A stretch of 64,000 nt of DNA from a virus (lineage: Duplodnaviria > Heunggongvirae > Uroviricota > Caudoviricetes), in the IMG/VR virus record IMGVR_UViG_2744054962_000001, one strand, 5' to 3'. The notes under the pieces are model-generated. The model was not told where the DNA came from and made no database searches. It saw nothing but the letters and a program-made list of their open reading frames with translations. This document shows positions 8,914 to 64,000 of this stretch, piece by piece (the first letter of the stretch is position 1; the number at the start of each line of letters is the position of its first letter). Both the position numbers and the translations under genes were made by a program.

Positions 8914-9051
8914 ATAGAAGTGACCTGACAGCTACAACTGGACAAGATTAAGAGCATTTTTTATAAACGAAAATAAACGCCTACATTGATAAGTAGATAC
9001 ATACTTATATTTCTGTAAGAATATGCTCGACGAAGGAATTGAGGAACCTTT

Positions 9052-17453: not shown

Positions 17454-19562
17454 ATGTCTAAAAAACGTTCCATCAAAGAGGTTCAGGACTTCCGTGACAG
17501 TGTAAAACGAGTAGTCGCTCTCCTTTCAGGTAAAAACATCCCTGTTGCAGAACGAGGGGACGACGCTTATGTACGCTATAACGATGATGGAGAGCCAATT
17601 CTCGTAAACATCCCATCAATCCCGGATAACGCAACACCGGCATTGATGAATGCTGTGCGCGGATTTCTCGATCATGAGGTTGCTCACATTTTGTTTACCG
17701 ATATTCGTGTGTCCAACAAAATGAGAGAAAAAGGACGCGTTCCTTCCTGGTCGCTATGGAATGCCTTAGAAGACGTGTTCATCGAGCGAAAAATGGGTCA
17801 GGTCTTTAACGGAACAAGACGTAATCTGATGGCAACTCAGCGCCTTATAATCGAAAAAGTCTTTAAACCAAAGGCTTCAGAGGCTATTGCTTATTGTGGC
17901 AAAGATCAGCGCGCGCTTTTTCTAAACTTCTTTCTCTGTCCGGTTGTAAGAGCCTGGGATGGCCAAGCACCGTTCGTAGATTTCATGGATGAATATTGGC
18001 CTGTCATTGAGAAACCAATTTCATTATTAAAAGAACATGGTATCGATGTGGCCGTGCGTAACATGTCTTGCACCGAGGATTGTGTAAAGGTGGCTGCGAC
18101 CATAGCTAAGATCCTCAAAGACACTGAAAGTGAAAGCAAAGGTAAGGAGTCAGCTCCGGGAAAAACTTCCGATCCTTCAGACGCTGACCAGACGGATGCC
18201 TCTGGAGAAAACAATGAAGATAACGAAGATCATGAGACACCCTCAGCGTTAGATAATCACAAATCTATCAAATCAGAATCACACAGTAAGCACAAACATG
18301 ATAATAATGACAGTGATGATTTAGATAATTCTGAATCATCAGAAACAATATTCGATGATACAGAAAATGATAAAGAGGTATCAGATTCTGATGCTTCTGA
18401 TAACGCGGCGTCAGAATCATTAACCGCTGACCACGAAAAAAGAAAAACGACAGAAGACGGCTCTTCAGATATTCCAACTCCGTCAAAAATGAGTCTGGAA
18501 GAGGCTTTAGAGGAGCTGGATAGCATAGAAGATGAAGTCGGAGGCATGACAGAAGATGCTCTATCCGAAACGATTAAAAGCGAGTTAACAGAAAGCTCGA
18601 AAAGCGAATACAGGCCATACAATCGCTCATACGACTTCATCGGCTCGATTGATCAGGCAGAAGCCCATATCAAACGGCTTATTAAAACATTCTCCGATAT
18701 TGATTTAGGAGGATGTCCAATCAGCCGCTATCGCATCGTTCCTGAAGGCAACCAGCTCTTCGACAAATATATTGAAAAGCATCTTTCGTCAGGTGTTTCG
18801 TCGACGCTGGCAAAAGACCTGGAGCGAGCAATAGCAAGCAGAAACAGAGTTCAGTTTATACCGGGCCAGCGTCGGGGGCGCATTCATGGTTCTAGTATCT
18901 ACAGATTAGCAATGAATGATGATCGCGTGTTTCGTAAAAAAGAAGAATCTAAAGCCGTTAACGCCTGTGTTCAACAAGTGATTGATTTATCAGGTTCAAT
19001 GAGGGGTATAACGATACAATTGGCTCTTGCAAGTGCATATACCATCGCCGATGCCCTTGATCGAATAAATGTTCCCAACATTATCACCGGCTTCACTACA
19101 TTTGGTAGTCATATGGCGGCAGGAGAACTTAAGGCTGTCAAGTATGAGTTCTCTCGCTTTGAATCTTTAATGCTACCTATCATCAAAAATTGGAATGAAA
19201 AGGTAAATTCTCGCGAAGTTCGCTCACGTATGGGGTGCGTAGGCTACACATTCCCACTTCTTAATAACGTGGATGGTGAAAGCATAGCCAGCCTTGCATC
19301 GTTATTTTCCGGTCGCATGGAGGACAGGAAGATCATGCTTGTTCTGAGCGATGGCGAGCCGTGGGCTGTTGGGAGAGGTTTTGACGCTCATTTGCGTTCG
19401 GTTGCGAAGCAAATTGAAACGCAGACTGACATTGATTTGATGGCAATTGGCATCATGACTGACGCACCGGAGAGATTTTACTCAAATCATGCCCTGGTAA
19501 CGAGCGTTGATAGTCTTGGTTCATCTGTAGTTACTGAACTATCTCGTATCATTTTAAAGTGA
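17454..19562 (+). CDS. CobT-like protein with acidic Ser/Asp-rich linker and C-terminal vWA domain
   Basis: MIDAS-like DLSGSM motif in C-terminal third; long acidic low-complexity middle; upstream of AAA+ CobS-like gene. Confidence 0.55.
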   Translation: MSKKRSIKEVQDFRDSVKRVVALLSGKNIPVAERGDDAYVRYNDDGEPILVNIPSIPDNATPALMNAVRGFLDHEVAHILFTDIRVSNKMREKGRVPSWSLWNALEDVFIERKMGQVFNGTRRNLMATQRLIIEKVFKPKASEAIAYCGKDQRALFLNFFLCPVVRAWDGQAPFVDFMDEYWPVIEKPISLLKEHGIDVAVRNMSCTEDCVKVAATIAKILKDTESESKGKESAPGKTSDPSDADQTDASGENNEDNEDHETPSALDNHKSIKSESHSKHKHDNNDSDDLDNSESSETIFDDTENDKEVSDSDASDNAASESLTADHEKRKTTEDGSSDIPTPSKMSLEEALEELDSIEDEVGGMTEDALSETIKSELTESSKSEYRPYNRSYDFIGSIDQAEAHIKRLIKTFSDIDLGGCPISRYRIVPEGNQLFDKYIEKHLSSGVSSTLAKDLERAIASRNRVQFIPGQRRGRIHGSSIYRLAMNDDRVFRKKEESKAVNACVQQVIDLSGSMRGITIQLALASAYTIADALDRINVPNIITGFTTFGSHMAAGELKAVKYEFSRFESLMLPIIKNWNEKVNSREVRSRMGCVGYTFPLLNNVDGESIASLASLFSGRMEDRKIMLVLSDGEPWAVGRGFDAHLRSVAKQIETQTDIDLMAIGIMTDAPERFYSNHALVTSVDSLGSSVVTELSRIILK

Positions 19563-19657
19563 ACAAAACAGCCTTAACGATAAGTAACCACTTACGATAG
19601 ATAATGATATATTTATATAAGAAGTTGAACGCTCATTAGAAAACAAAGGAAAAACGC

Positions 19658-24610: not shown

Positions 24611-24883
24611 AAAGAATTATGGCGCTTGTTGAGGAAGTCACTCCTCTTACGCACTTTGTTTTGCCATGCCGGCAGTTAGCTTCTGCCTTTGACTATTCAT
24701 GCGGCAACCCCGCATTTCGCCACAATGGGCAATTCACTTTTATGGAATAAACTGGCCGTTGTGTCGATTTAATTAGCATGGCCTTACCATGCTAATTTAT
24801 TCAACTTGTACAATCCTACAAATCTATCCACTCAGGCTTACACCGTCTTCGTTATTGTAGAAATGAGGATCATCAGCGTTGAA

Positions 24884-25099
24884 TCAGCTTAGAGCAACGA
24901 CATTTGCTGCTGCTGGGCCTTTAGCACCATTCTCGATAGAGAATTCGACCTGCTGGCCTTCTTCCAAAGTGCGGAAATTATTACTCTGAATTGCCGAAAA
25001 ATGTACAAAAACATCTTTACTGCCATCAGCAGGAGAAATAAAGCCAAAGCCTTTATCAGAGTTAAACCATTTTACTAAACCAGTCATTTTATTAGACAT
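24884..25099 (-). CDS. Cold-shock protein (CspA family)
   Basis: [21 protein letters not shown]...[10 protein letters not shown] cold-shock domain with RNP motifs; ORF-track N-terminal extension is probably 5-prime UTR. Confidence 0.8.
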
Positions 25100-25403
25100 A
25101 GATATTACCTTCTTAATTTTGTGAGCCACATAGTGCGGCGAGAATTTGATCTGTATAGATTGGGACTTACTTAGGCACTTAAGGAGGAGGCTCACGAAGA
25201 AGGGAAATCAGAAGATAACACTGAACTGAGACTGCTTTACTAAAACTGCTTACATAAGGTCTGTCTTGCAAACCAACGATGCTATTAACGCATACCCCTT
25301 CTTTTCATGCAACCTTTATTTTTCAAAGATAACTAATTTTTGTCACCATTGGTTTAGTAAACGTTAACGAACCAGACGATGCCAGACACCTTTACAGAGA
25401 ACA

Positions 25404-31752: not shown

Positions 31753-31814
31753 TCTCTTGAAAATATATAAGTGCTTACTTATTATTTTCACATAACAACC
31801 ACATAGGAAAACAC

Positions 31815-51093: not shown

Positions 51094-51648
51094 ATGACAA
51101 CGATTGTTGCAGGCATCGATATCGAGTCTACGGGACTGGATTTCCTTGCTGGTCATAAAATTATTGAAATCGCAATTACCCGCTATGAACTGGAGACACA
51201 GACAATGGTTGATAGTTTTGTAATGCGGTTCAACCCGCGTCGCAGTATCGATCCGAAAGCGCAAGCGGTACACGGCATCAGTCTTGAAGATTTAGCCGCC
51301 GAGCCGTTACTAGCCGATCACGCTTCATCTGTCGCTTCGTATCTCTCTTCTTCCGATATTTGGATAGCCCACAACGGCGAAGCGTTCGATATTCCGTTTA
51401 TTAGGCATGAGCTGAAAAGTTACGGTTTTTCGCTTCCAGACATCCCATTGATTGACACTCTATTTTCCCTGTGGGCCACAGAAGACGGTAAACGTCCCCG
51501 CCTTGAAGAGTTGGCCTTCTCTCTTGGCTTTATGTACGATCATACTAAAGCACATAGTGCCTTATATGACACAAACTTAATGATGCAATGCTTCTTTAAG
51601 GCACGTAATAAGTACGGATTTTTTAAATTACCCTCTGAAATTGTGTAA
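51094..51648 (+). CDS. DnaQ-like 3-prime to 5-prime exonuclease (DEDDh)
   Basis: Exo I GIDIESTG, Exo II HNGEAFD, Exo III HSALYDT. Confidence 0.7.
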   Translation: MTTIVAGIDIESTGLDFLAGHKIIEIAITRYELETQTMVDSFVMRFNPRRSIDPKAQAVHGISLEDLAAEPLLADHASSVASYLSSSDIWIAHNGEAFDIPFIRHELKSYGFSLPDIPLIDTLFSLWATEDGKRPRLEELAFSLGFMYDHTKAHSALYDTNLMMQCFFKARNKYGFFKLPSEIV

Positions 51649-51652
51649 AACA

Positions 51653-51691
51653 AAAGCCTGCTTTAAAGAGAGTTTAAAGCAGGCTTTCTTT
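51653..51691 (+). terminator. Long hairpin terminator
   Basis: AAAGCCTGCTTTAAA gagag TTTAAAGCAGGCTTT followed by CTTTT. Confidence 0.6.
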
Positions 51692-51808: not shown

Positions 51809-52618
51809 ATGAGTTCGGTTGAAAATGTAATGGCAAATGATGATCTGGACGAGCTGACAGCCATGTTGCAATCACTTGATGAGCCAGTAAAAAAAGCCGC
51901 ACAGGTTGAAAATACTGATGATATTGACGATCTGCTGCTCGGCCTCGATGCTGGCGTAGCCATGAGTTCTGATGATGTTGCCGAAGAACTGTTCAATGAA
52001 GAAAAAGCAGGTGATTTCAGCTCTGCTTTAAATGAGTTGGAGTTAGCGCATGAGCCTATAAACGTAATTAACGCTGAAAGTGTTGAATCTGCCGAAAACG
52101 AGCCAGAACAATTGGGATTGATTGAGGTTGAAGAGTGTGTTGATGTTAATGATGAATTAAAAGTTCAACAGTCAAATGATAGCAACACAAATAAAAAAGC
52201 GCGTACTGCAAGAGGTCCTCGTTTTACTTTAAGTGATAAAGATGATTCGTTTTTCAATAAAGCAGGCTTAGAAACAGATATTTTCTTAGACGCTTACGAA
52301 AACGCGCCTGTCAAAGCAAAGGATAAGATATTAAACCTTCTTAATTGGTTTAGCGGAGGTCCAGATATTAGTGTTTACACGGTAATTTCCATGAGACACC
52401 TTCTCACAGAAAAGAAGGCTACAAGTAATAGTATTAAGATTGCTTTAATGAGCAATCCAGAAAAACCGTATCCGCTTAACACTGCGTCAACTCAGGCTGG
52501 GCAAATGATGGCTGTATTTCCAGCGACAGGAATTGCCGTTAGAGACGGTGGAAATCTAACATTGAACGAAGAATCACCGATCGTTAAGAAGTTTGTAGCG
52601 GAGTACACTATTGGATGA
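51809..52618 (+). CDS. Hypothetical protein with strongly acidic N-terminal half
   Basis: First 110 aa dominated by Asp/Glu (DDLDELT, DDIDDLLLGLD, DDVAEELFNEE); 269 aa. Confidence 0.45.
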   Translation: MSSVENVMANDDLDELTAMLQSLDEPVKKAAQVENTDDIDDLLLGLDAGVAMSSDDVAEELFNEEKAGDFSSALNELELAHEPINVINAESVESAENEPEQLGLIEVEECVDVNDELKVQQSNDSNTNKKARTARGPRFTLSDKDDSFFNKAGLETDIFLDAYENAPVKAKDKILNLLNWFSGGPDISVYTVISMRHLLTEKKATSNSIKIALMSNPEKPYPLNTASTQAGQMMAVFPATGIAVRDGGNLTLNEESPIVKKFVAEYTIG

Positions 52619-52693
52619 CGTCCCCCTACTGAAAATAAAGCCCATAGAGAGCTTTATAGTGCTGGGTAAGCCAATCACATATCCAGCACCACA

Positions 52694-52740
52694 AAAACGC
52701 GCCAGAGAGCTTCTCGTTTGCATTTCTGGCGCGTTTTATT
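52694..52740 (+). terminator. Hairpin terminator
   Basis: AAAACGCGCCAGA ... TCTGGCGCGTTTT. Confidence 0.5.
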
Positions 52741-52801
52741 TGATTGTCAGACATAAAATCAAATGCAAAAATAGGTAATCACTTACCTATCGAGAAAGAA
52801 G

Positions 52802-53395
52802 ATGATTGCAGCCGAAAAAATCAAACAGCGAAAGCGCGACAACTCTCTTCGTGACCTCTGGAGAACACCTGACTGGCTGTTTTCTGCCATTCAACGTTAT
52901 CTTGGAGTGACATTTGATGTTGACGTTGCCTGCAACAAGGACAATGCGAAGCTGCCTAATTTCATAGGCGTTGAGCGTGATGCTTTGAAATCTGAATGGG
53001 GAAAGCCAGGTACAATTGCCTTCCTCAATCCACCCTACTCCAAAATCTCCCCCTGGATTGATGCGGCTATACGTGAGCAGGCTCGCGGAGTTACAACAGT
53101 GATGCTAATTCCTCAATCCCTCGATACAAAGTGGTATGAGCGTGCAACAGAGTGTGCGAATGAGACGATTATTCTGTCTGGTGGCCGCGTAGCGTTTGTC
53201 GAGCCTGACGTCAATTTGGGTCAGGTAGAAGTAAACATCAACCCCGGTGGCAGTATGCTCGTTGTTTTTCGAGGATTCTGTCAGGACGCTGGGCACTCTA
53301 TAAGCAAGATCCCTTTGGACGTCATGAAAAGTCTGGGAGGGTATGATCCTGCGAATGTGATCAGGAAAAAAAGACCATCAAAGAAGGCTGCTTAG
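52802..53395 (+). CDS. Orphan DNA N6-adenine methyltransferase (phage Dam-like)
   Basis: Catalytic NPPY motif (FLNPPYSK); 197 aa with no adjacent restriction gene. Confidence 0.65.
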   Translation: MIAAEKIKQRKRDNSLRDLWRTPDWLFSAIQRYLGVTFDVDVACNKDNAKLPNFIGVERDALKSEWGKPGTIAFLNPPYSKISPWIDAAIREQARGVTTVMLIPQSLDTKWYERATECANETIILSGGRVAFVEPDVNLGQVEVNINPGGSMLVVFRGFCQDAGHSISKIPLDVMKSLGGYDPANVIRKKRPSKKAA

Positions 53396-53416: not shown

Positions 53417-53480
53417 AGCCTGCTTCTGTATATATAAATAACTACATATTAATTATTAATATACGGAAGCAGGCTGTTTT
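53417..53480. terminator. Long AT-rich hairpin, second copy of the 4255-4316 family
   Basis: AGCCTGCTTCTGTATAT ... ATATACGGAAGCAGGCT with one G-U wobble, followed by GTTTT. Confidence 0.5.
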
Positions 53481-53812: not shown

Positions 53813-54395
53813 TAGATAAGTACAAACTATTCATAAAGTGAATTGTAAGTGCTAAGATCTGATAGTTTCCAGTCGTAGACTGGAGACTCGACCTGATGGG
53901 TGGGGGTAAGCGTCACTGGCGTCAGGTTTAAAAAAGCTCACTACCAGCGTAGAACCGGTGCCGTTTAGGTGTCGGGGAAGGGGGAACCAAAGTGAGCAGA
54001 GACAAGGGTCACTTTATGATTGTCGAGTCTGGGGTGTTTCGAGAGGTTGAATCCAGTACTCCCCTTCATAAAGTGTGGGAAGATCTCGGTTCTGGGGTGC
54101 TGTCATCCATAACTTCCCAAGTCTAAGCTGGCAGTAGACTTAGACCATAGCTTTTCAGGTTATGAAACGACCAGGTTGGTGAGGAATTTTATACTCACCT
54201 CCCTGGGAGAGTATTACCTGAAAAGACAACCTCTCACTTCGTTCGAGGTGAACTTCACTCACTTCGTTCGTTCAGTTCAGGTTTATAAAAAACCTGTTCT
54301 GGGAAGTAATTTGTTTATTTTAATAATTATTAACACGCACGCGTGTGCGCACGCGCGAGGAAAAAATCGGCGCGGCGCTTGATTCAGGAGTTTAT
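53813..54395. other. ORF-poor structured region (candidate ncRNA or regulatory region) ending in a 25-bp alternating purine-pyrimidine tract
   Basis: No ORF of 60 aa or more on + strand across about 360 bp; multiple local hairpins; direct repeat TCACTTCGTTCG x2; Z-DNA-prone ACACGCACGCGTGTGCGCACGCGCG at 54333-54357. Confidence 0.3.
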
Positions 54396-58166: not shown

Positions 58167-58315
58167 CCAATGCCTTTATTTGAAGGATTGCCTGTTTATT
58201 TCTATTTAGTACCTTTTCATTTTTGAAATAATAGCACCATTAAACAAATCACTTCTTAATGGTGCTATTATGAATACAGCCCTTTCCATCATCGACGATC
58301 CCAACTCAAACGCTG

Positions 58316-58343
58316 CTATCGACTATCGACTATCGACTATCGG
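58316..58343. repeat. Heptanucleotide tandem repeat (CTATCGA) x 3 plus a variant copy
   Basis: CTATCGACTATCGACTATCGACTATCGG immediately upstream of start codon at 58350. Confidence 0.6.
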
Positions 58344-58691: not shown

Positions 58692-58818
58692 ATGAAGGTT
58701 AAAGAGTTCGTTGGTGTACCTGAGTTCAAAGTGGATACAGACATCCCTACGATGGTTTGATCTGACAGCTATCTGCAATTTGCACAGATATCTGCCAGAT
58801 CTGGTTCAGATTAATACA

Positions 58819-61800
58819 CTATATCTGCCCACCTACTCCTTTGAACTTTTCAATAAACGTGACGATTTTCTGGAAAACGGTCTGTTTTTTCGTTTTATAT
58901 TGCGGGTTTAACGGACTAAGTTTTGGTAATGTCTCGTTTAATTCTGTGCCATTTTCGGTGGCGTATTCGCGTTTTAAAGACGTGCGAATATAGCGTTTCG
59001 CCGCCTCTTCATTGAGATTTTCTTCTTTTATCAATGCTTCTGCTTCACGTTGCTGTTCGCGTTGAGCAAACGTAAAGAATGCCTCAATGATACTGGCTTT
59101 GTCTGGTAAATCATCCAGGTTCGTTTGCTGAATAAAATCGACCACCAGGCCCTCTTTCGCCCGGTTCCCCAGGCTTGAACGAATTAAGCGTTTGACCTCT
59201 TCGATCATTTCGCCCTTGCCTTTATTTTGTCTGTTGTGTTCGAAAATCAGTCCAAGGATATAATCCAGGTTTATTTCCTGAGACTTCAGCAAATCGACCT
59301 CAAAAACTACGTCATCCCAGTCAGTGGTTGATTTCTCTTTTTTCTCAGCTTCTTTCTCACGGCGTTGCCAGTCGCGAATATCGTTATAGGCAGAACGATA
59401 ATCCTGAATCTTGCGTTCAGCAGGGAGACGAATCGTTTGCAATTCAGCGAACTTTTCATCATCCACATAATGTTCTTCTTTGAATTTTTCTACCGCAACA
59501 GGATCGCTAAGATCGATTTGTTGCAGGGCTTTCAGCGTGGCAAATTCATCATAGTTTTGCAGGATGTTCTCGGCACGCAGGTATTCACCAAACAGTTTAA
59601 CGAAGTCTTTCTTCTCTTTTTCACTTTCAATACTGGTAGGGTCAGGGAACCGTTGTTCCAATTCTGAAACTACTGCCATAAAGCCGCGCTTAGCTTCACC
59701 AGTGGCAGCATCAGTAAAGCCTTCCATATACTCTGCATAACTCTTTTCTAAAACCACATTTTTGGTGTTTTTGCCACCAAACAGCGTTATGGCATCAATA
59801 GTTGAGCGTTCCAGATCCCGGAAAGTGACGATATTACCGAAGGTTTTAGTTGCATCATAAATACGGTTGGTGCGGGAAAATGCCTGCATCAAGCCGTGAA
59901 AACGCAGGTTTTTATCGACGAATAGCGTGTTCAATGTTGGAGCATCGAAGCCAGTTAAAAACATCCCCACGACAATTAACAGATCGATATCCTGATTTTT
60001 AACCCGCTGGGCTAAATCACGATAGTAGTTCTGAAAACCGTTACTGTCGGTGCTGAAGTTAGTTTTAAAATAGCTGTTATACTCACGAATTGCAGCATCA
60101 AGAAACTCTTTAGCACTGCTGTCCATTGCGCTGGTATCAAAAGTTTCATCGGATATTTCACCAATGGCATTTTGTTCTTCATTAGCGGCAAAGGAGAAGA
60201 TTGTCGCAACACGCAGTGGGTTATAGGTGGCAGATTTATTAGCGGCTTCCTCTTGTAACCGTTTAAACGTCGCGTAATAGGCTTTCGCGGCATCCACGCT
60301 GCTTACTGCCAGCATGGCATTAAAACCTTTGGAACCAGGGAAAGTACGGTGGGTCTTCTGACGGAAATTATTCAGAATATATTGCGTGATTTCCTGAATA
60401 CGCATGGGATGAAGAAACGCCTGCTGATTTTCAGCCGCACTCAGTTTTTTCTCGTCAGTTTCTGTCTCTAAAGACTTAAACTGTGGCCGCACATCGTTGT
60501 AGTCCACCTTGAATTTGAGCACTTTTTCGTCACGAATCGCATCGGTAATTACATACGAATGCAATTCACGACCAAATACGCTGGCGGTTATTTCTGAGCC
60601 TAAGGCATTTTCCGGGAAAATAGGTGTGCCGGTAAAACCAAACTGATAATAGCGTTTGAATTTCTTCTTCAGGTTTTTCTGCGCTTCTCCAAACTGGCTG
60701 CGGTGACATTCATCAAATATAAACACCACTTGCTGATTGTATACAGGCAGGTCGCTTTCTGCTTTCATCAGGTTATTAAGTTTCTGAATAGTGGTGACGA
60801 TAATTTTGTTATCGTCCTTATCCAGATTTCGTTTAAGACCTGCTGTATTTTCCGAGCCGTTAACACTATCTGGCGAAAAACGCTGATATTCCTTCATGGT
60901 CTGGTAATCGAGGTCTTTCCTGTCGACCACGAAGAAGACTTTATCAATAAAGTCCAGTTCTGTTGCCAGACGCGCGGCTTTAAAGCTGGTCAGTGTTTTA
61001 CCAGAACCGGTGGTGTGCCAGATAAAGCCACCGCTTTCGGGGTTAGACCAGTTTTTCGCTTTATAGGAGCTGTTGATTTTCCATAAGATTCGTTCGGTGG
61101 CGGCAATCTGGTACGGTCGCATCACCAGTAGTGTCTGACTACTGTCAAACACGCTGTAGTTCACCAGAACATTCAGCAGAGTATGTTTCTGGAAAAAGGT
61201 AGCGGTAAAATCTTTGAGGTCTTTAATCAGCGTGTTGTCTGATTTCGCCCAGTTCATGGTGAAGTCAAAACTATTTTTATCGCGCTTTGTGGTGTTGGCA
61301 AAGTAACGGGTATCGGTGCCGTTAGAAATGACAAACAGTTGCAGATACTTAAACAGGGAATTTTCGCTGTTAAAACTCTCTTTACTGTAACGATGTATCT
61401 GGTTGAAAGCCTCACGAATCGCCACGCCGCGCTTTTTCAGTTCGATTTGCACCAGAGGCAAGCCATTAACCAGGATAGTTACGTCATAACGGTTAGCGTG
61501 AGAACCTGCCTGTTCAAACTGCTGGATAATCTGCACTTTGTTGCGCATGAGATTCTTTTTATCGATCAAATAGATGTTCTCAAGACGCCCGTCATCAAAA
61601 ATAAAGTCGCAAATATAGTCGATATGGATTTTACGGGTCTTATCCAGAATGCCATCACTCGGGTTGTCCAGATACTGCTCCGTGAAACGCCGCCACTCGC
61701 TGTCATTAAATACCACACCATTGAGGCTCTGAAGCTGTTCCCGAACATTGGACAGCATCGCCAACTGTGATTTTACCGAAATAAATTCATAGCCCTGATT

Positions 61801-61935
61801 CCGCAGGTCCTGAATCAGTTCCCGTTCCAGGTCCGATTCGCTCTGGTAGCTGTCGCCTGTTTGCTCAGCTTTGATGTACTTATCAAGGACGATAAAGTTA
61901 TTGGATTCAGCAATGGTGTGTGTTTGATGAGTCAT
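58819..61935 (-). CDS. hsdR: Type I restriction enzyme R subunit (Type IC, EcoR124I-like)
   Basis: 1038 aa; N-terminus [24 protein letters not shown] matches my recollection of EcoR124I HsdR; helicase motifs TGSGKT and DECHRS. Confidence 0.8.
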
Positions 61936-62056
61936 AGCGCATCCTTTGTGCCGCCTGGCAAGGGCCGGAAGGGCGTTAAGAGTGACTTCCGGCGCGTAAA
62001 AAATAGTCTATATACAGACCGGGTGTTAAGGAGGCCCGGTCGGTAGCAATGGTCAA

Positions 62057-63394
62057 TTATTTACTGACAGTTTCAGGTTTTGGGAAACTGAACAGTAAAT
62101 CACGATAGTACTCGTATTGTTTCTGGCGCAACTCGATTTCACGCGGAAGGCCTTCGGTGATGGAGTTAGTCAGGGTGTCGAATTTATCCAGAATCCGAAC
62201 GATTTCAGACTGGATGGCAAGGGATTTTTCCGGATTGCCCGGGCAGGGGATGGGGATGAGTAGTTTTGACATCAATGCATTTGAGCTTAGATTCGGCTGT
62301 GCTCCGCCCCCTGCAAGGATATAAATAGTCTCTGTATTTAACAATAAAAAATGGTATAAATAATTATTGTTTAGAATATTTTCTTTGGGTATAAATTTTC
62401 CAACCCGTTGATTAAGATAACATTTTATTTCTTTTTTATAAATCCCCACTTTTCCTGTAGTGGCACCTGACATTGCAATCAATATATTTCCCATAGATAC
62501 CTCAAAGGAGGATAAATCTTCCTTGTAATCATTTAGTGAAAAGTATTTCACCTCATCTAAGTTAACATTAAACCCATCTATATTTGTGATTCTAACTATC
62601 GGTAACCCAGTTTCTTTAAATAAGCTGCTTTTAAATGCAAATCCATTTTTAAAATCACAAACATCCTTCAGGGTTTTCCACTCAACCTCAACCCCATCCA
62701 GCAATTTTTCCAGATAAATAGGTTTTTCCTGCTCCTCATCAAAACTCAACAACTGGTCGCGATAGTAGTTGTATTGTTTTTTACGCATGCTAAGCTCTGC
62801 TGTAAGCTCTGCTGTAAGGGCGCTGAATTTGTCCAGAATTCGCACGATTTCAGACTGGATAGTAAGGGATTTTTCTGGATCATTAGGACAAATGATAGGA
62901 ACCAGTATTTTTTTAAATCTTGATTTTGAAATATTAAAGCGTGTTACACCACTAGCTGTTTTTGCTATTTCAGAGCGCATGAAATGGGTTCGAAAAAGGT
63001 ATTTTGCGAACTCCGGTTTGATTTTTATGCTGTTACTGAATCTGATACCAAAAGAAAAGCTGTTTAAATACACTGATTCTTCGAAGTGTACTGTAACGGC
63101 GGAGGACATGCCTGCTTCATCAGCAATTTCAGATGAGCCAGTAAATAAAACATCCCCATATCTTACTTTATTTTGTCTTTCTCCCTCACTAATATATACA
63201 TAATCAGTAGGGTAATCATTCACATCTAAATAACCAAATATTTTTTTGTATGAAACATATCTGGCATTACCGTTCTCAAAATCAGATTTACTCTTTCCTG
63301 TTAGGCCACCATAAATTTCAGCGACGTTCCCCAATGGCAACCACTTAACTTCAACCCCATCCAGCAATTTTTCCAGATAACTTAACTCGCTCAT
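62057..63394 (-). CDS. hsdS: Type I restriction-modification specificity subunit (Type IC) with two TAEL repeats
   Basis: Conserved N-terminal, central and C-terminal blocks ([20 protein letters not shown]...[23 protein letters not shown]) with two AT-rich variable target-recognition domains. Confidence 0.8.
62793..62816 (-). repeat. 12-bp tandem repeat encoding TAEL-TAEL in the hsdS central conserved region
   Basis: AGCTCTGCTGTA x2 on + strand, equivalent to ACAGCAGAGCTT x2 on coding strand. Confidence 0.7.
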
Positions 63395-64000
63395 TTCTGT
63401 ACCTCGCAGCCTTCAATTTCAGCCACAATCGCATCAATATCTTTACGCAACTGGTCGATTTTGCTGACCGTGGTTTTCAGCTCTGCATTCAGTTCAGCAA
63501 TATTGATTATTTCGCGGTTATCTTTCGCTTCCACATAGCTGCTTACCGACAGGTTATAGTCATTCGCGACAACGGTCTCAAACGTGACAGATTTCGCCAG
63601 ATGAGCAACATCTTCCTTGCTGGCAAATACCTGCATAATCTGTTCGATATGGGCATCGGTCAGGATATTGTTGTTAGTCTCTTTTTTGAACAGTTCGCTG
63701 GCGTCAATAAACTGAACTTTGGTATCCGTTTTATGTTTAGACAGCACCAGAATGTTTACGGCAATGGTGGTGCCAAAGAACAGGTTCGGTGCCAGTGAAA
63801 TCACGGTTTCGACATAGTTATTATCGACCAGATACTGACGGATTTTCTGCTCCGCGCCGCCACGGTAAAAAATACCCGGGAAGCAGACAATCGCAGCACG
63901 ACCTTTGGCAGAAAGATAGTTCAGTGCATGTAATACAAACGCAAAGTCAGCTTTGGATTTGGGGGCCAGAACGCCAGCCGGGGCAAAACGCTCATCGTTA
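63391..64000 (-). CDS. hsdM: Type I restriction-modification methyltransferase subunit, C-terminal part (5-prime end beyond window)
   Basis: Frame open to window edge on minus strand; overlaps hsdS start by 4 bp. Confidence 0.7.

What the first reader, a model, noticed from the sequence alone, without database searches (positions are those of the whole stretch)
51809..53395. Strongly acidic protein followed by an orphan Dam-like N6-adenine methyltransferase
The 269-aa protein has an N-terminal half dominated by Asp/Glu, reminiscent of DNA-mimic anti-restriction proteins. It is followed by a solitary NPPY methyltransferase with no partner nuclease. Both are classic strategies for evading host restriction, although the element itself carries a Type IC system 5 kb away.
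Basis: inference. Interest (0 to 1): 0.5.

Follow-up and report, generated by a model that had tools for sequence, protein, structure and literature searches.

The report
Acidic winged-helix protein plus orphan methylase
Both genes are real, but the acidic protein is a conserved core protein of a large phage lineage (a disordered acidic tail on a DNA-binding-type winged-helix domain), not a DNA-mimic anti-restriction protein, and the gene after it is an ordinary phage orphan adenine methylase added only in the SSU5 branch.

Summary
The window is an SSU5-like phage-plasmid, 95% identical to Escherichia phage Cyrano.

**Methylase (52802-53395).** It is a full-length, NPPY-bearing member of the phage Dam family (PF05869; TIGR01712 above its curated cut-off). 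No nuclease lies next to it. A Type IC restriction-modification system begins 5.4 kb downstream.

**Acidic protein (51809-52618).** It has three parts:
- a conserved N-terminal LDxLLxxL-like helix;
- a fast-evolving, low-confidence acidic linker;
- a confidently folded C-terminal winged-helix domain.

It matches no Ocr or ArdA family. It belongs to an unnamed family of about 646 sequence clusters, found so far in phages of about 100-120 kb. In that family it always lies downstream of the DnaQ-like exonuclease of the replication module. The methylase follows it in 78 of 80 SSU5-like loci and in 0 of 58 distant loci.

Terminator-like hairpins flank each gene, and both genes are silent in the Cyrano lysogen.

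**Verdict.** These are two unrelated lytic-cycle genes, not an anti-restriction pair. My best guess for the acidic protein is a DNA-anchored regulator or adaptor. A lineage-associated AAGT-core palindrome near promoters is a candidate target, but this is unproven. Interest is modest.

The parts
51094..51648 (+). DnaQ-like 3'-5' exonuclease (Pol III epsilon-like). This is the conserved upstream neighbour of the acidic gene.
   Evidence: PF00929 RNase_T at 2.5e-23. Weak epsilon models, below cut-off. Upstream on the same strand in 79/80 SSU5-like loci and 47/58 distant loci.
51653..51687 (+). Terminator-like hairpin after the exonuclease gene
   Evidence: 15-bp stem, -20.8 kcal/mol, z -5.0, 0 of 200 shuffles fold as well. 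Followed by CTTTT.
51809..52618 (+). Acidic 269-aa protein, homologous to CYRAN_78 and SSU5_087
   Evidence: ORF. phrog_5235 at 2e-149, function unknown. 55 close homologues, all named hypothetical. About 646 clusters in the exhaustive search.
51845..51868 (+). N-terminal LD-like amphipathic acidic motif LDELTAML (aa 13-20), inside the conserved segment DDLDELTAMLQSLDEP
   Evidence: L16, L20, L23 and D24 are (nearly) invariant. Residues 1-26 are 59% identical across orthologues, against 27% for the linker. The motif is about 14-fold enriched over shuffles across the family, and its first copy sits near residue 14.
51887..52159 (+). Variable acidic linker (aa 27-117), predicted low-confidence or disordered
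   Evidence: pLDDT 30-63, with residues 84-132 below 50. Many indels in the alignment. 27% mean identity.
52160..52225 (+). Short basic patch (aa 118-139, ...NKKARTARGPRF) preceding the folded domain
   Evidence: Net charge +4 in the sliding window. R138 and F139 are nearly invariant.
52226..52615 (+). C-terminal winged-helix domain (aa 140-269)
52694..52737 (+). Terminator-like hairpin after the acidic gene, followed by TTTTATTT
   Evidence: -26.2 kcal/mol, z -6.3, 0 of 200 shuffles fold as well.
52744..52772 (+). Sigma-70-like promoter candidate upstream of the methylase (TTGTCA-17-AAAAAT with an extended TG)
   Evidence: Consensus scan, 9 of 12 matches. The number of sites in the region does not exceed shuffles, so this is weak.
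52802..53395 (+). Orphan phage Dam-family N6-adenine DNA methyltransferase. NPPY at aa 76-79 (nt 53027-53038).
   Evidence: PF05869 at 1.2e-38. TIGR01712 scores 114.6, above its 97.05 cut-off. PADLOC orphan-MTase models. phrog_111. 78 of 82 orthologous ORFs keep NPPY and full length.
53418..53474 (+). Hairpin after the methylase gene, followed by TGTTTTAT
   Evidence: Sequence. Fold -17.3 kcal/mol, z -3.0.
58819..64000 (-). Type IC restriction-modification cassette (hsdR, hsdS, and the 3' part of hsdM cut by the window end). Context only.
   Evidence: EcoR124_C, HSDR_N, Methylase_S and N6_Mtase domains. PADLOC REase_I and Specificity_I. Absent at this site in Cyrano. 95% identical to a cassette in two other E. 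coli phages, vB_EcoM-673R5 (95 kb) and phi456 (89 kb).

Best explanation
These are two independent lytic-cycle genes of an SSU5-like phage-plasmid, not an anti-restriction pair.

(1) The acidic gene encodes a conserved core protein of a lineage of roughly 100-120 kb phages. Members seen here include SSU5-like phage-plasmids, Pseudomonas Nickievirus, and the Rhizobium RHEph10 and Stenotrophomonas BUCTxx99 types. The protein is bipartite. A C-terminal winged-helix domain carries a nearly invariant putative recognition helix (GT[AS]xxQxxQ[ML]M). A flexible acidic N-terminal tail carries one or more LDxLLxxL-like amphipathic motifs. I infer that the winged helix anchors the protein on DNA. I also infer that the acidic tail recruits, or competes for, a partner such as RNA polymerase or a replisome or recombination protein. 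On this reading the protein is a DNA-bound regulator or adaptor of the replication/transcription programme. A promoter-associated AAGT-core palindrome is a candidate binding site: ATAAGTA-N2-6-TACTTAT in this element, and AAGTCA-N4-TGACTT in many distant loci that carry the family.

(2) The downstream gene is a standard orphan phage Dam-family m6A methyltransferase acquired in the SSU5 clade. I infer that it is transcribed on its own during lytic growth and methylates progeny DNA before packaging. Its target is unknown; GATC is the guess from characterised family members.

Shown: the gene structures, family memberships, fold, synteny, hairpins and lysogenic silence. Inferred: DNA binding, partner recruitment, the link to the palindrome, and the methylation target and timing.
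For: **Element identity and collinearity.** The window is 95% identical to Cyrano. Cyrano, SSU5 and the lytic phage nickie share gene order.

**Family-wide traits.** The exhaustive profile search found 646 clusters at E <= 0.001; the 150 best-scoring members listed are mostly 200-340 aa with the domain at or near the C-terminus. Among the 198 proteins held at that point, the median N-terminal extension is 131 aa, 24% D/E, net charge -20. The LD-like motif occurs 1.05 times per protein against 0.076 in shuffles.

**Core-gene behaviour.** Named phage hits all have genomes of 84-122 kb. The gene lies downstream of dnaQ in nickie, RHEph10 and BUCTxx99. The exonuclease is upstream on the same strand in 79/80 and 47/58 loci. 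Dam is downstream in 78/80 and 0/58 loci.

**Separate transcription units.** Hairpins lie between the genes.

**Silence in lysogeny.** CYRAN_78 is at 10.7 FPKM and CYRAN_79 at 6.0 FPKM. The background median is 9.8 and the authors' moron cut-off is 49 (supplement of PMC9928086).

**Methylase.**

**Palindrome.**
- ATAAGT..ACTTAT occurs 5 times against 0.04 expected in the window.
- AAGTCA..TGACTT occurs 13 times against 0.6 expected in 51 non-redundant distant loci.
- Among the 23 instances printed, about ten place the palindrome's last TT at the start of a TTGnnn, followed by 17 nt and a -10-like hexamer (read by eye). That centres the palindrome near -41.5.
- Over 204 sites pooled from the family loci and from the motif-selected loci, 24 of 407 site-directions fit a relaxed version of this geometry (TTG, 16-18 nt, -10-like hexamer) against 3 in a shifted control.
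Against: - No experiment or named homologue supports DNA binding. The C-domain is near neutral rather than basic, and winged helices can also bind proteins (cullin and kleisin hits).
- The palindrome link is circumstantial. The loci were selected for carrying the family. Phage nickie has the protein but no enriched palindrome.
- Spacing in the SSU5 clade varies from 2 to 6 nt, which is awkward for a rigid dimer.
- Many sites lie 0-30 nt from start codons, which is too close for activator geometry.
- Other regulators are annotated in Cyrano.
- No palindrome lies directly upstream of the acidic gene or the methylase.
- The methylase target is not determined. Identity to Stx-phage Dam is only 39%.
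Confidence: 0.5

Rival explanations
1. First reader's model. The acidic protein is a DNA-mimic anti-restriction protein of the Ocr/ArdA type that titrates Type I enzymes. It works alongside the methylase as a two-pronged restriction-evasion module.
For: There is a strong acidic bias: pI 4.2 and net charge -31 in 120 aa. It is adjacent to an orphan methylase in 78/80 SSU5-like loci. The window avoids 6-bp palindromes, which indicates restriction pressure. Flexible acidic tails can compete with DNA in other systems (own knowledge).
Against: - No hit to any Pfam family, including the Ocr and ArdA families, nor to NCBIfam or PADLOC.
- The acidic part is the least conserved part and is modelled with low confidence, not as a rigid array of charges.
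- The conserved part is a neutral winged helix.
- The gene is a syntenic core gene of the replication module in lytic relatives across Pseudomonas, Rhizobium and Stenotrophomonas that lack the methylase.
- It is separated from the methylase by a terminator-like hairpin.
- It is not in an early-entry or leading position as far as the map shows.
Confidence: 0.07
2. Replisome or recombination accessory protein. The winged helix or the LD-motif tail binds the phage DnaQ-like exonuclease, Pol III alpha, the gp32-like SSB or a host factor. On this reading the protein acts as a tether or organiser rather than a transcription factor.
For: The gene always lies downstream of the DnaQ-like exonuclease on the same strand across the lineage. 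It is embedded among nucleotide-metabolism and replication genes. In the Cyrano data its expression rises across samples together with the exonuclease gene, while the methylase stays flat. Acidic tails that dock partners are typical of SSB, T7 gp2.5 and T4 gp32 (own knowledge).
Against: No interaction could be computed. Synteny in collinear phage genomes is weak evidence of physical interaction. The polar residues of the third helix of the winged helix are nearly invariant, which fits nucleic-acid recognition at least as well.
Confidence: 0.28
3. Structural or scaffolding protein: an acidic, helical, elongated protein used in head assembly.
For: Many scaffolding proteins are acidic and helical, with a small C-terminal binding domain (own knowledge). 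The N-terminal half is predicted helical in segments.
Against: The gene lies about 70 kb from the head module. The slot between portal and major capsid protein is occupied by another gene in both Cyrano (CYRAN_4) and nickie (gp150). The acidic gene sits in the DNA-metabolism block in all relatives.
Confidence: 0.03
4. For the methylase alone. It is not an anti-restriction device. It is a replication, packaging or gene-regulation enzyme that tops up GATC methylation when the host Dam is outpaced, as phage P1 Dam does at its pac site.
For: The hosts (Enterobacteriaceae) are already Dam+. GATC is not avoided: 269 sites observed against 326 expected in 64 kb. Characterised relatives (T1, VT-2) are reported as GATC enzymes (own knowledge; references listed in PMC7556043). 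The same paper says the function of phage Dam enzymes is still unclear.
Against: The target is unknown. Some small phage adenine methylases have very relaxed specificity and do protect against many enzymes (PMC3299994; PMC7556043). The Hia5 family belongs to a different class (DPPY motif, FxGxG upstream), however.
Confidence: 0.35

Closest known systems
Phage Dam-family N6-adenine methyltransferases (Pfam PF05869, TIGR01712; e.g. Dam of coliphage T1 and of Stx/VT-2 phages)
   Same: Full-length HMM match above the curated cut-off, the NPPY catalytic motif, a small size of about 200 aa, no partner nuclease, and phage-borne.
   Different: Only 39% identical to the Stx-phage enzymes and about 28-30% to those of the roughly 50-kb Klebsiella and Salmonella phages listed. 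Specificity is untested. Here it is a monocistronic insert in the replication block of a phage-plasmid.
DNA-mimic anti-restriction proteins Ocr (T7 gp0.3) and ArdA
   Same: Low pI and a high Asp/Glu content.
   Different: There is no sequence relationship. Ocr and ArdA are compact folded mimics that are acidic throughout (own knowledge). Here the acidity sits in a variable, low-confidence tail attached to a neutral winged helix. The gene behaves as a core gene, not an accessory one.
Winged-helix transcription factors (Fur, BlaI/MecI, MarR, E2F-DP, linker histone globular domain)
   Different: Sequence identity is 4-17%. Foldseek finds no significant PDB match (E >= 0.17). There is no Pfam family. 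The long acidic N-terminal extension and the extra helices at 146-181 are not part of those families.
Phage T4 MotA and class II (-41.5) bacterial activators, as a functional analogy only
   Same: A two-domain layout with an N-terminal partner-binding part and a C-terminal DNA-binding part. The candidate cognate box overlaps the -35 region in a subset of relatives.
   Different: No sequence homology to the T4 MotA families: the Pfam scan returned no family at all. The MotA C-domain is a 'double wing', not a classic winged helix (own knowledge). Binding of this protein to the box is unproven, and the box is absent from nickie.
Acidic C-terminal tails of SSB, T7 gp2.5 and T4 gp32, and eukaryotic LD motifs (paxillin LDxLLxxL) and acidic activation domains
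   Same: A disordered acidic segment bearing short amphipathic motifs, likely used for partner docking or self-inhibition.
   Different: The tail is N-terminal, there is no OB fold, and there is no homology. The resemblance is compositional and comes from memory; it is not a tested membership.

Membership tests
Phage Dam-family m6A methyltransferase (PF05869 / TIGR01712) | Profile match above the curated threshold over the full domain | tested here: met
   PF05869 scores 132.9 bits against a 28.1 cut-off, covering profile 5-160 of 169. TIGR01712 equivalog scores 114.6 against 97.05.
Phage Dam-family m6A methyltransferase (PF05869 / TIGR01712) | Catalytic motif IV (D/N)PP(Y/F) | tested here: met
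   NPPY at aa 76-79. Retained in 78 of 82 orthologous ORFs.
Phage Dam-family m6A methyltransferase (PF05869 / TIGR01712) | Orphan status (no cognate endonuclease adjacent) | tested here: met
   The flanking genes are the acidic protein and an 84-aa hypothetical (phrog_5343), with no nuclease domains. The same arrangement is seen in SSU5 and Cyrano.
Phage Dam-family m6A methyltransferase (PF05869 / TIGR01712) | m6A activity and target sequence (GATC in characterised members) | not testable with these tools
   Needs a methylome or a DpnI/MboI assay. GATC is present at 269 sites in the window.
DNA-mimic anti-restriction proteins (Ocr, ArdA) | Sequence membership in the Ocr or ArdA families | tested here: not met
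   0 Pfam families at E <= 0.01. 0 NCBIfam. 0 PADLOC. No PDB sequence match for the C-domain profile.
DNA-mimic anti-restriction proteins (Ocr, ArdA) | A compact folded domain displaying an ordered array of carboxylates that imitates B-DNA | tested here: not met
   The acidic half has pLDDT 30-63 and residues 84-132 are below 50. It has 27% identity and many indels among orthologues. A prediction cannot fully exclude order on binding.
DNA-mimic anti-restriction proteins (Ocr, ArdA) | Accessory or early-entry gene behaviour | tested here: not met
   Conserved synteny behind dnaQ in the replication module in 126 of 138 loci and in nickie, RHEph10 and BUCTxx99.
DNA-mimic anti-restriction proteins (Ocr, ArdA) | Inhibition of Type I restriction in vivo or in vitro | not testable with these tools
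   Requires plating-efficiency or binding assays.
Winged-helix (wHTH) DNA-binding fold | Helix-turn-helix followed by a beta-hairpin wing | tested here: met
Winged-helix (wHTH) DNA-binding fold | Actual DNA binding and a cognate site | tested here: inconclusive
   The polar third helix is nearly invariant. An AAGT-core palindrome is enriched in loci with the family. But it is absent from nickie, and no direct link is shown.
   PF12008 EcoR124_C at 1e-71, plus HSDR_N, SWI2_SNF2, Methylase_S and N6_Mtase. PADLOC REase_I and Specificity_I. HsdM is cut by the window end.
Head scaffolding protein | Position in the head-morphogenesis module between portal and major capsid protein | tested here: not met
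   That slot is CYRAN_4 in Cyrano and gp150 in nickie. The acidic gene is about 70 kb away in the DNA-metabolism block.

The most novel reading that the evidence does not exclude
The acidic winged-helix protein is the dedicated transcription activator of this phage lineage. On this reading a dimer binds the AAGT-core palindrome that overlaps the -35 region, centred at about -41.5. Its acidic LDxLLxxL-motif tail then works like a eukaryote-style acidic activation domain on host RNA polymerase. This would define a new, widespread family of phage activators with a recognisable box, including in clinically common SSU5-type phage-plasmids.
Probability: 0.2. Interest if true: 0.6.

Novelty: new variant of a known kind. 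Interest (0 to 1): 0.3.

Why it matters
SSU5-type phage-plasmids are common in clinical Enterobacteriaceae, and their lytic programme is essentially unstudied. The methylase adds nothing new.

The acidic protein is different. It marks a large unnamed family of about 646 sequence clusters with no Pfam entry, which behaves as a core gene of a phage lineage of roughly 110 kb. It has an unusual 'acidic motif tail plus winged helix' design.

If it proves to be the lineage's regulator, its palindromic box would allow prediction of the lytic regulon. If it does relieve restriction after all, it would be a new architecture for anti-restriction. Either way, the practical value here is negative: acidity next to a methylase should not be read as an anti-restriction module.

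Tried and rejected
1. **Sequence libraries.** Pfam, NCBIfam and PADLOC scans of the acidic protein gave no hits; PHROGs gave only unknown-function families (phrog_5235, phrog_3932). A PDB sequence search with the C-domain profile gave nothing.

2. **Named homologues.** Two large protein searches returned only 'hypothetical protein'.

3. **Fold searches.** BFVD gave only uncharacterised phage proteins. Foldseek against PDB gave nothing significant. afdb50 was not available.

4. **Hia5/Hin1523 non-specific adenine methylases (PMC3299994).** I considered them as the methylase's family and rejected this. They are alpha-class enzymes with FxGxG upstream of DPPY at about residue 194. This is unlike the present enzyme, which has NPPY at residue 76.

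5. **Exonuclease-linker-acidic fusion for AF2.** I prepared a paired alignment to look for an interaction with DnaQ.

6. **Literature search for the AAGTCA/TGACTT box.** It returned only unrelated primer hits.

7. **Whole IMG/VR scan for TAAGTCA-N4-TGACTTA.** About a quarter of the listed hits come from contigs of roughly 85-120 kb, including seven that carry the family. The flanks held no copy of the gene, so co-occurrence could not be scored.

8. **The same box in phage nickie.** No enriched palindrome was found. This weakens the protein-box link.

9. **CTATCGA, shared upstream of both genes.** With 8 forward and 7 reverse copies in 64 kb, it is not distinctive.
Full report
**What the element is.** A 3-kb stretch around the finding is 95% identical to Escherichia phage Cyrano, the phage-plasmid pLF82. 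It is 76% identical, over 65% of its length, to Salmonella phage SSU5. In Cyrano the two genes are CYRAN_78 ('hypothetical') and CYRAN_79 ('adenine methyltransferase'). In SSU5 they are gp087 and gp088. They lie in a long same-strand block of DNA-metabolism genes:
- ribonucleotide reductase, MazG, thymidylate synthase and DHFR;
- an AAA-type kinase-like ATPase and a DnaQ-like exonuclease;
- then the acidic gene, the methylase and RNase H.

**Checking the observation.** Both ORFs are at the stated coordinates.
- *Acidic protein.* It has pI 4.2. Residues 1-135 hold 35 D/E against 8 K/R, and the second half is near neutral. Its most acidic 120-aa stretch has net charge -31. That ties for first among 57 ORFs in the window.
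- *Methylase.* It matches PF05869 (Dam) over the whole profile. It passes the curated cut-off of the TIGR01712 equivalog. NPPY lies at residues 76-79, and no nuclease is next to it.
- *Type IC system.* hsdR carries the EcoR124_C domain and starts 5.4 kb downstream on the other strand.

**Anatomy of the acidic protein.** An alignment of 21 orthologues shows three zones:
- a conserved N-terminal segment, DDLDELTAMLQSLDEP, 59% identical on average;
- a linker full of indels, 27% identical;
- a C-terminal domain of about 130 aa, 69% identical.

**The family.** An exhaustive profile search with the C-domain found 646 clusters at E <= 0.001. The 150 best-scoring members listed are mostly 200-340 aa with the domain at or near the C-terminus. 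Across 184 members, the N-terminal extension is a median 131 aa long, 24% D/E, with net charge -20. It carries a short amphipathic motif of the form hydrophobic-[DE]-x-hydrophobic-hydrophobic-x-x-hydrophobic.
- In the window protein this is LDELTAML at residues 13-20.
- The motif is about 14-fold more frequent than in shuffled tails, and the first copy usually sits near residue 14.
- 52 proteins carry two or more copies.

The third helix of the winged helix is nearly invariant and polar: GT[AS]xxQxxQ[ML]M, or TASTQAGQMM in this protein. Every source name is 'hypothetical protein'.

**Where the family lives.** In the GenBank phage collection a distant member hits 30 records, all from phages with genomes of 84-122 kb: SSU5-like phage-plasmids and a Klebsiella prophage, Pseudomonas Nickievirus, and Stenotrophomonas and Rhizobium phages. 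Most IMG/VR contigs carrying the gene are also about 100-118 kb. Nickie, a lytic phage, is collinear with Cyrano over the structural and DNA-metabolism modules. In nickie, RHEph10 and BUCTxx99 the gene lies downstream of the DnaQ-like exonuclease, and none has a Dam-family gene after it.

| Locus set | Exonuclease upstream, same strand | Methylase downstream |
|---|---|---|
| 80 SSU5-like loci | 79 | 78 |
| 58 distant loci | 47 | 0 |

(All counts.) So the acidic gene is an old core gene of the replication block. Its adjacency to the methylase is a clade-specific accident of insertion.

**Transcription.** Strong hairpins followed by T-runs sit after three genes:
- after the exonuclease gene (-20.8 kcal/mol, z -5.0);
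- after the acidic gene (-26.2 kcal/mol, z -6.3);
- after the methylase.

A weak promoter-like site precedes the methylase. In the published LF82 RNA-seq re-analysis, CYRAN_78 is at 10.7 FPKM and CYRAN_79 at 6.0 FPKM. Both are at the Cyrano background (median 9.8) and far below the authors' cut-off of 49 for genes expressed in lysogeny (supplement of PMC9928086). Both are therefore lytic-cycle genes, and they appear to be separate units.

**The methylase.** Homologues occur in 1,978 phage records, including Stx phages (39% identity), roughly 50-kb Klebsiella, Salmonella and E. coli phages (about 28-30%) and lactococcal 936 phages. Within the SSU5 clade, 78 of 82 orthologous ORFs are full-length and keep NPPY, which suggests the enzyme is maintained. 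Its target is unknown.
- Characterised relatives (T1, VT-2) are reported as GATC enzymes. This is from my own knowledge; the references are listed in PMC7556043.
- GATC is frequent in the window: 269 sites, an observed/expected ratio of 0.83.
- Some small phage adenine methylases are nearly non-specific (PMC3299994; PMC7556043). The best-studied ones (Hia5) belong to a different class.
- PMC7556043 itself notes that the role of phage Dam enzymes is not well understood.

**A lead on the winged helix's target.** The most over-represented inverted repeat in the window is ATAAGTA-N2-6-TACTTAT: 5 copies against 0.04 expected. All five (8990, 12572, 19581, 31768, 47938) are intergenic and lie 30-250 nt upstream of plus-strand genes. 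Cyrano has eight, including copies before tail and tail-fibre genes.

In 51 non-redundant distant loci that carry the family, the top inverted repeat is AAGTCA-N4-TGACTT, with 13 copies against 0.6 expected. There are 23 distinct instances with the consensus T-AAGTCA-N4-TGACTT-(A/G).

In about ten of these instances (read by eye), the last TT of the palindrome starts a TTGnnn hexamer, followed by 17 nt and a -10-like hexamer. That places the palindrome centre near -41.5. Over 204 sites pooled from the family loci and the motif-selected loci, a relaxed version of this geometry (TTG, 16-18 nt, -10-like hexamer) appears in 24 of 407 site-directions, against 3 in a shifted control.

This fits a conserved dimeric factor with a conserved recognition helix, and the acidic winged-helix protein is a candidate. 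The link remains weak, for four reasons:
- the loci were chosen for carrying the family;
- many sites lie too close to start codons for activator geometry;
- spacing varies in the SSU5 clade;
- nickie has the protein but no enriched palindrome.

My best-supported reading is that the acidic protein is a DNA-anchored regulator or adaptor whose acidic motif tail docks a partner. I give about 0.5 to this general class as a whole. I do not regard the transcription-factor and replisome-adaptor versions as separable with the present data; as a standalone rival I score the replisome-adaptor version 0.28. I give the DNA-mimic model about 0.07 and the scaffold model about 0.03.

**Novelty.** The methylase is an ordinary member of a known family. 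The acidic protein belongs to an unnamed family with a known fold and an unusual tail. Overall this is a new variant of a known kind, of modest interest.

Noticed in passing
window 8990-9007, 12572-12589, 19581-19594, 31768-31781, 47938-47951 (also Cyrano; L093, L099, L134, L139-L143 and others): Inverted repeat ATAAGTA-N2-6-TACTTAT sits just upstream of several plus-strand genes. ATAAGT..ACTTAT occurs 5 times against 0.04 expected. Distant relatives carry AAGTCA-N4-TGACTT (13 against 0.6 expected). In about ten printed instances this overlaps a -35-like TTGnnn, with a 17-nt spacer to a -10-like hexamer. It is probably a lineage-specific regulatory box. Phage nickie lacks it.
   Followed up: partly
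whole window: There is strong avoidance of 6-bp palindromes typical of Type II sites. AAGCTT occurs once against 16 expected, AGCGCT 0 against 12, GAGCTC 0 against 10.7, and CTCGAG 0 against 8.2. CTAG is at 0.36 of expectation. This indicates a history of restriction pressure.
   Followed up: no
window 58755-64000: Homology to Cyrano ends near 58754, at the start of Cyrano's DUF4942 methyltransferase gene. It is replaced by a Type IC R-M cassette that is 95% identical to one in two other E. coli phages (vB_EcoM-673R5 and phi456) and 82% identical to one in a Klebsiella SSU5-like phage. This is a variable defence hotspot with a cassette shared between different phages.
   Followed up: partly
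window 58315-58336: Tandem heptamer CTATCGA occurs three times, with a degenerate fourth copy (GCTATCGACTATCGACTATCGACTATCGG). It lies between the last Cyrano-like gene and the Type IC cassette.
   Followed up: no
window 53992-54126: A small 44-aa ORF lies at the position corresponding to CYRAN_81, in the long gap between the methylase unit and RNase H. CYRAN_81 is one of the few Cyrano genes expressed in the lysogen, at 117 FPKM against a background of 9.8. It could be a moron or a non-coding RNA. No Rfam family matches.
   Followed up: partly
window 24859-25277 (-): Full-length Rfam cspA thermoregulator match at 187 bits. This implies a cspA-like cold-shock gene with its 5' UTR on the element.
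   Followed up: no
window 13339-13583 (+): Three tRNA genes in a row, at the position where Cyrano annotates a tRNA-Asn/Thr/Ser cluster.
   Followed up: no
Cyrano genome (L145, L006, L001, L146); window: A second over-represented inverted repeat, AAACAA-N1-TTGTTT, occurs 9 times against 0.42 expected in Cyrano. In the window, the wider 1-9 nt gap scan counted 5 against 0.2. It may be an operator or part of terminators.
   Followed up: no
window 47968-49071 (+): The thymidylate synthase is unusually long at 367 aa. Its Pfam match is split into two stretches, which suggests an insertion in the ThyA fold. Cyrano's annotation names it 'ThyX', although the match is to ThyA-type PF00303.
   Followed up: no
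window 17454-19562 (+): The CobT-like 702-aa ORF contains an acidic stretch as extreme as the finding's protein, with net charge -31 in 120 aa. Acidity alone does not single out the finding's protein in this element.
   Followed up: no
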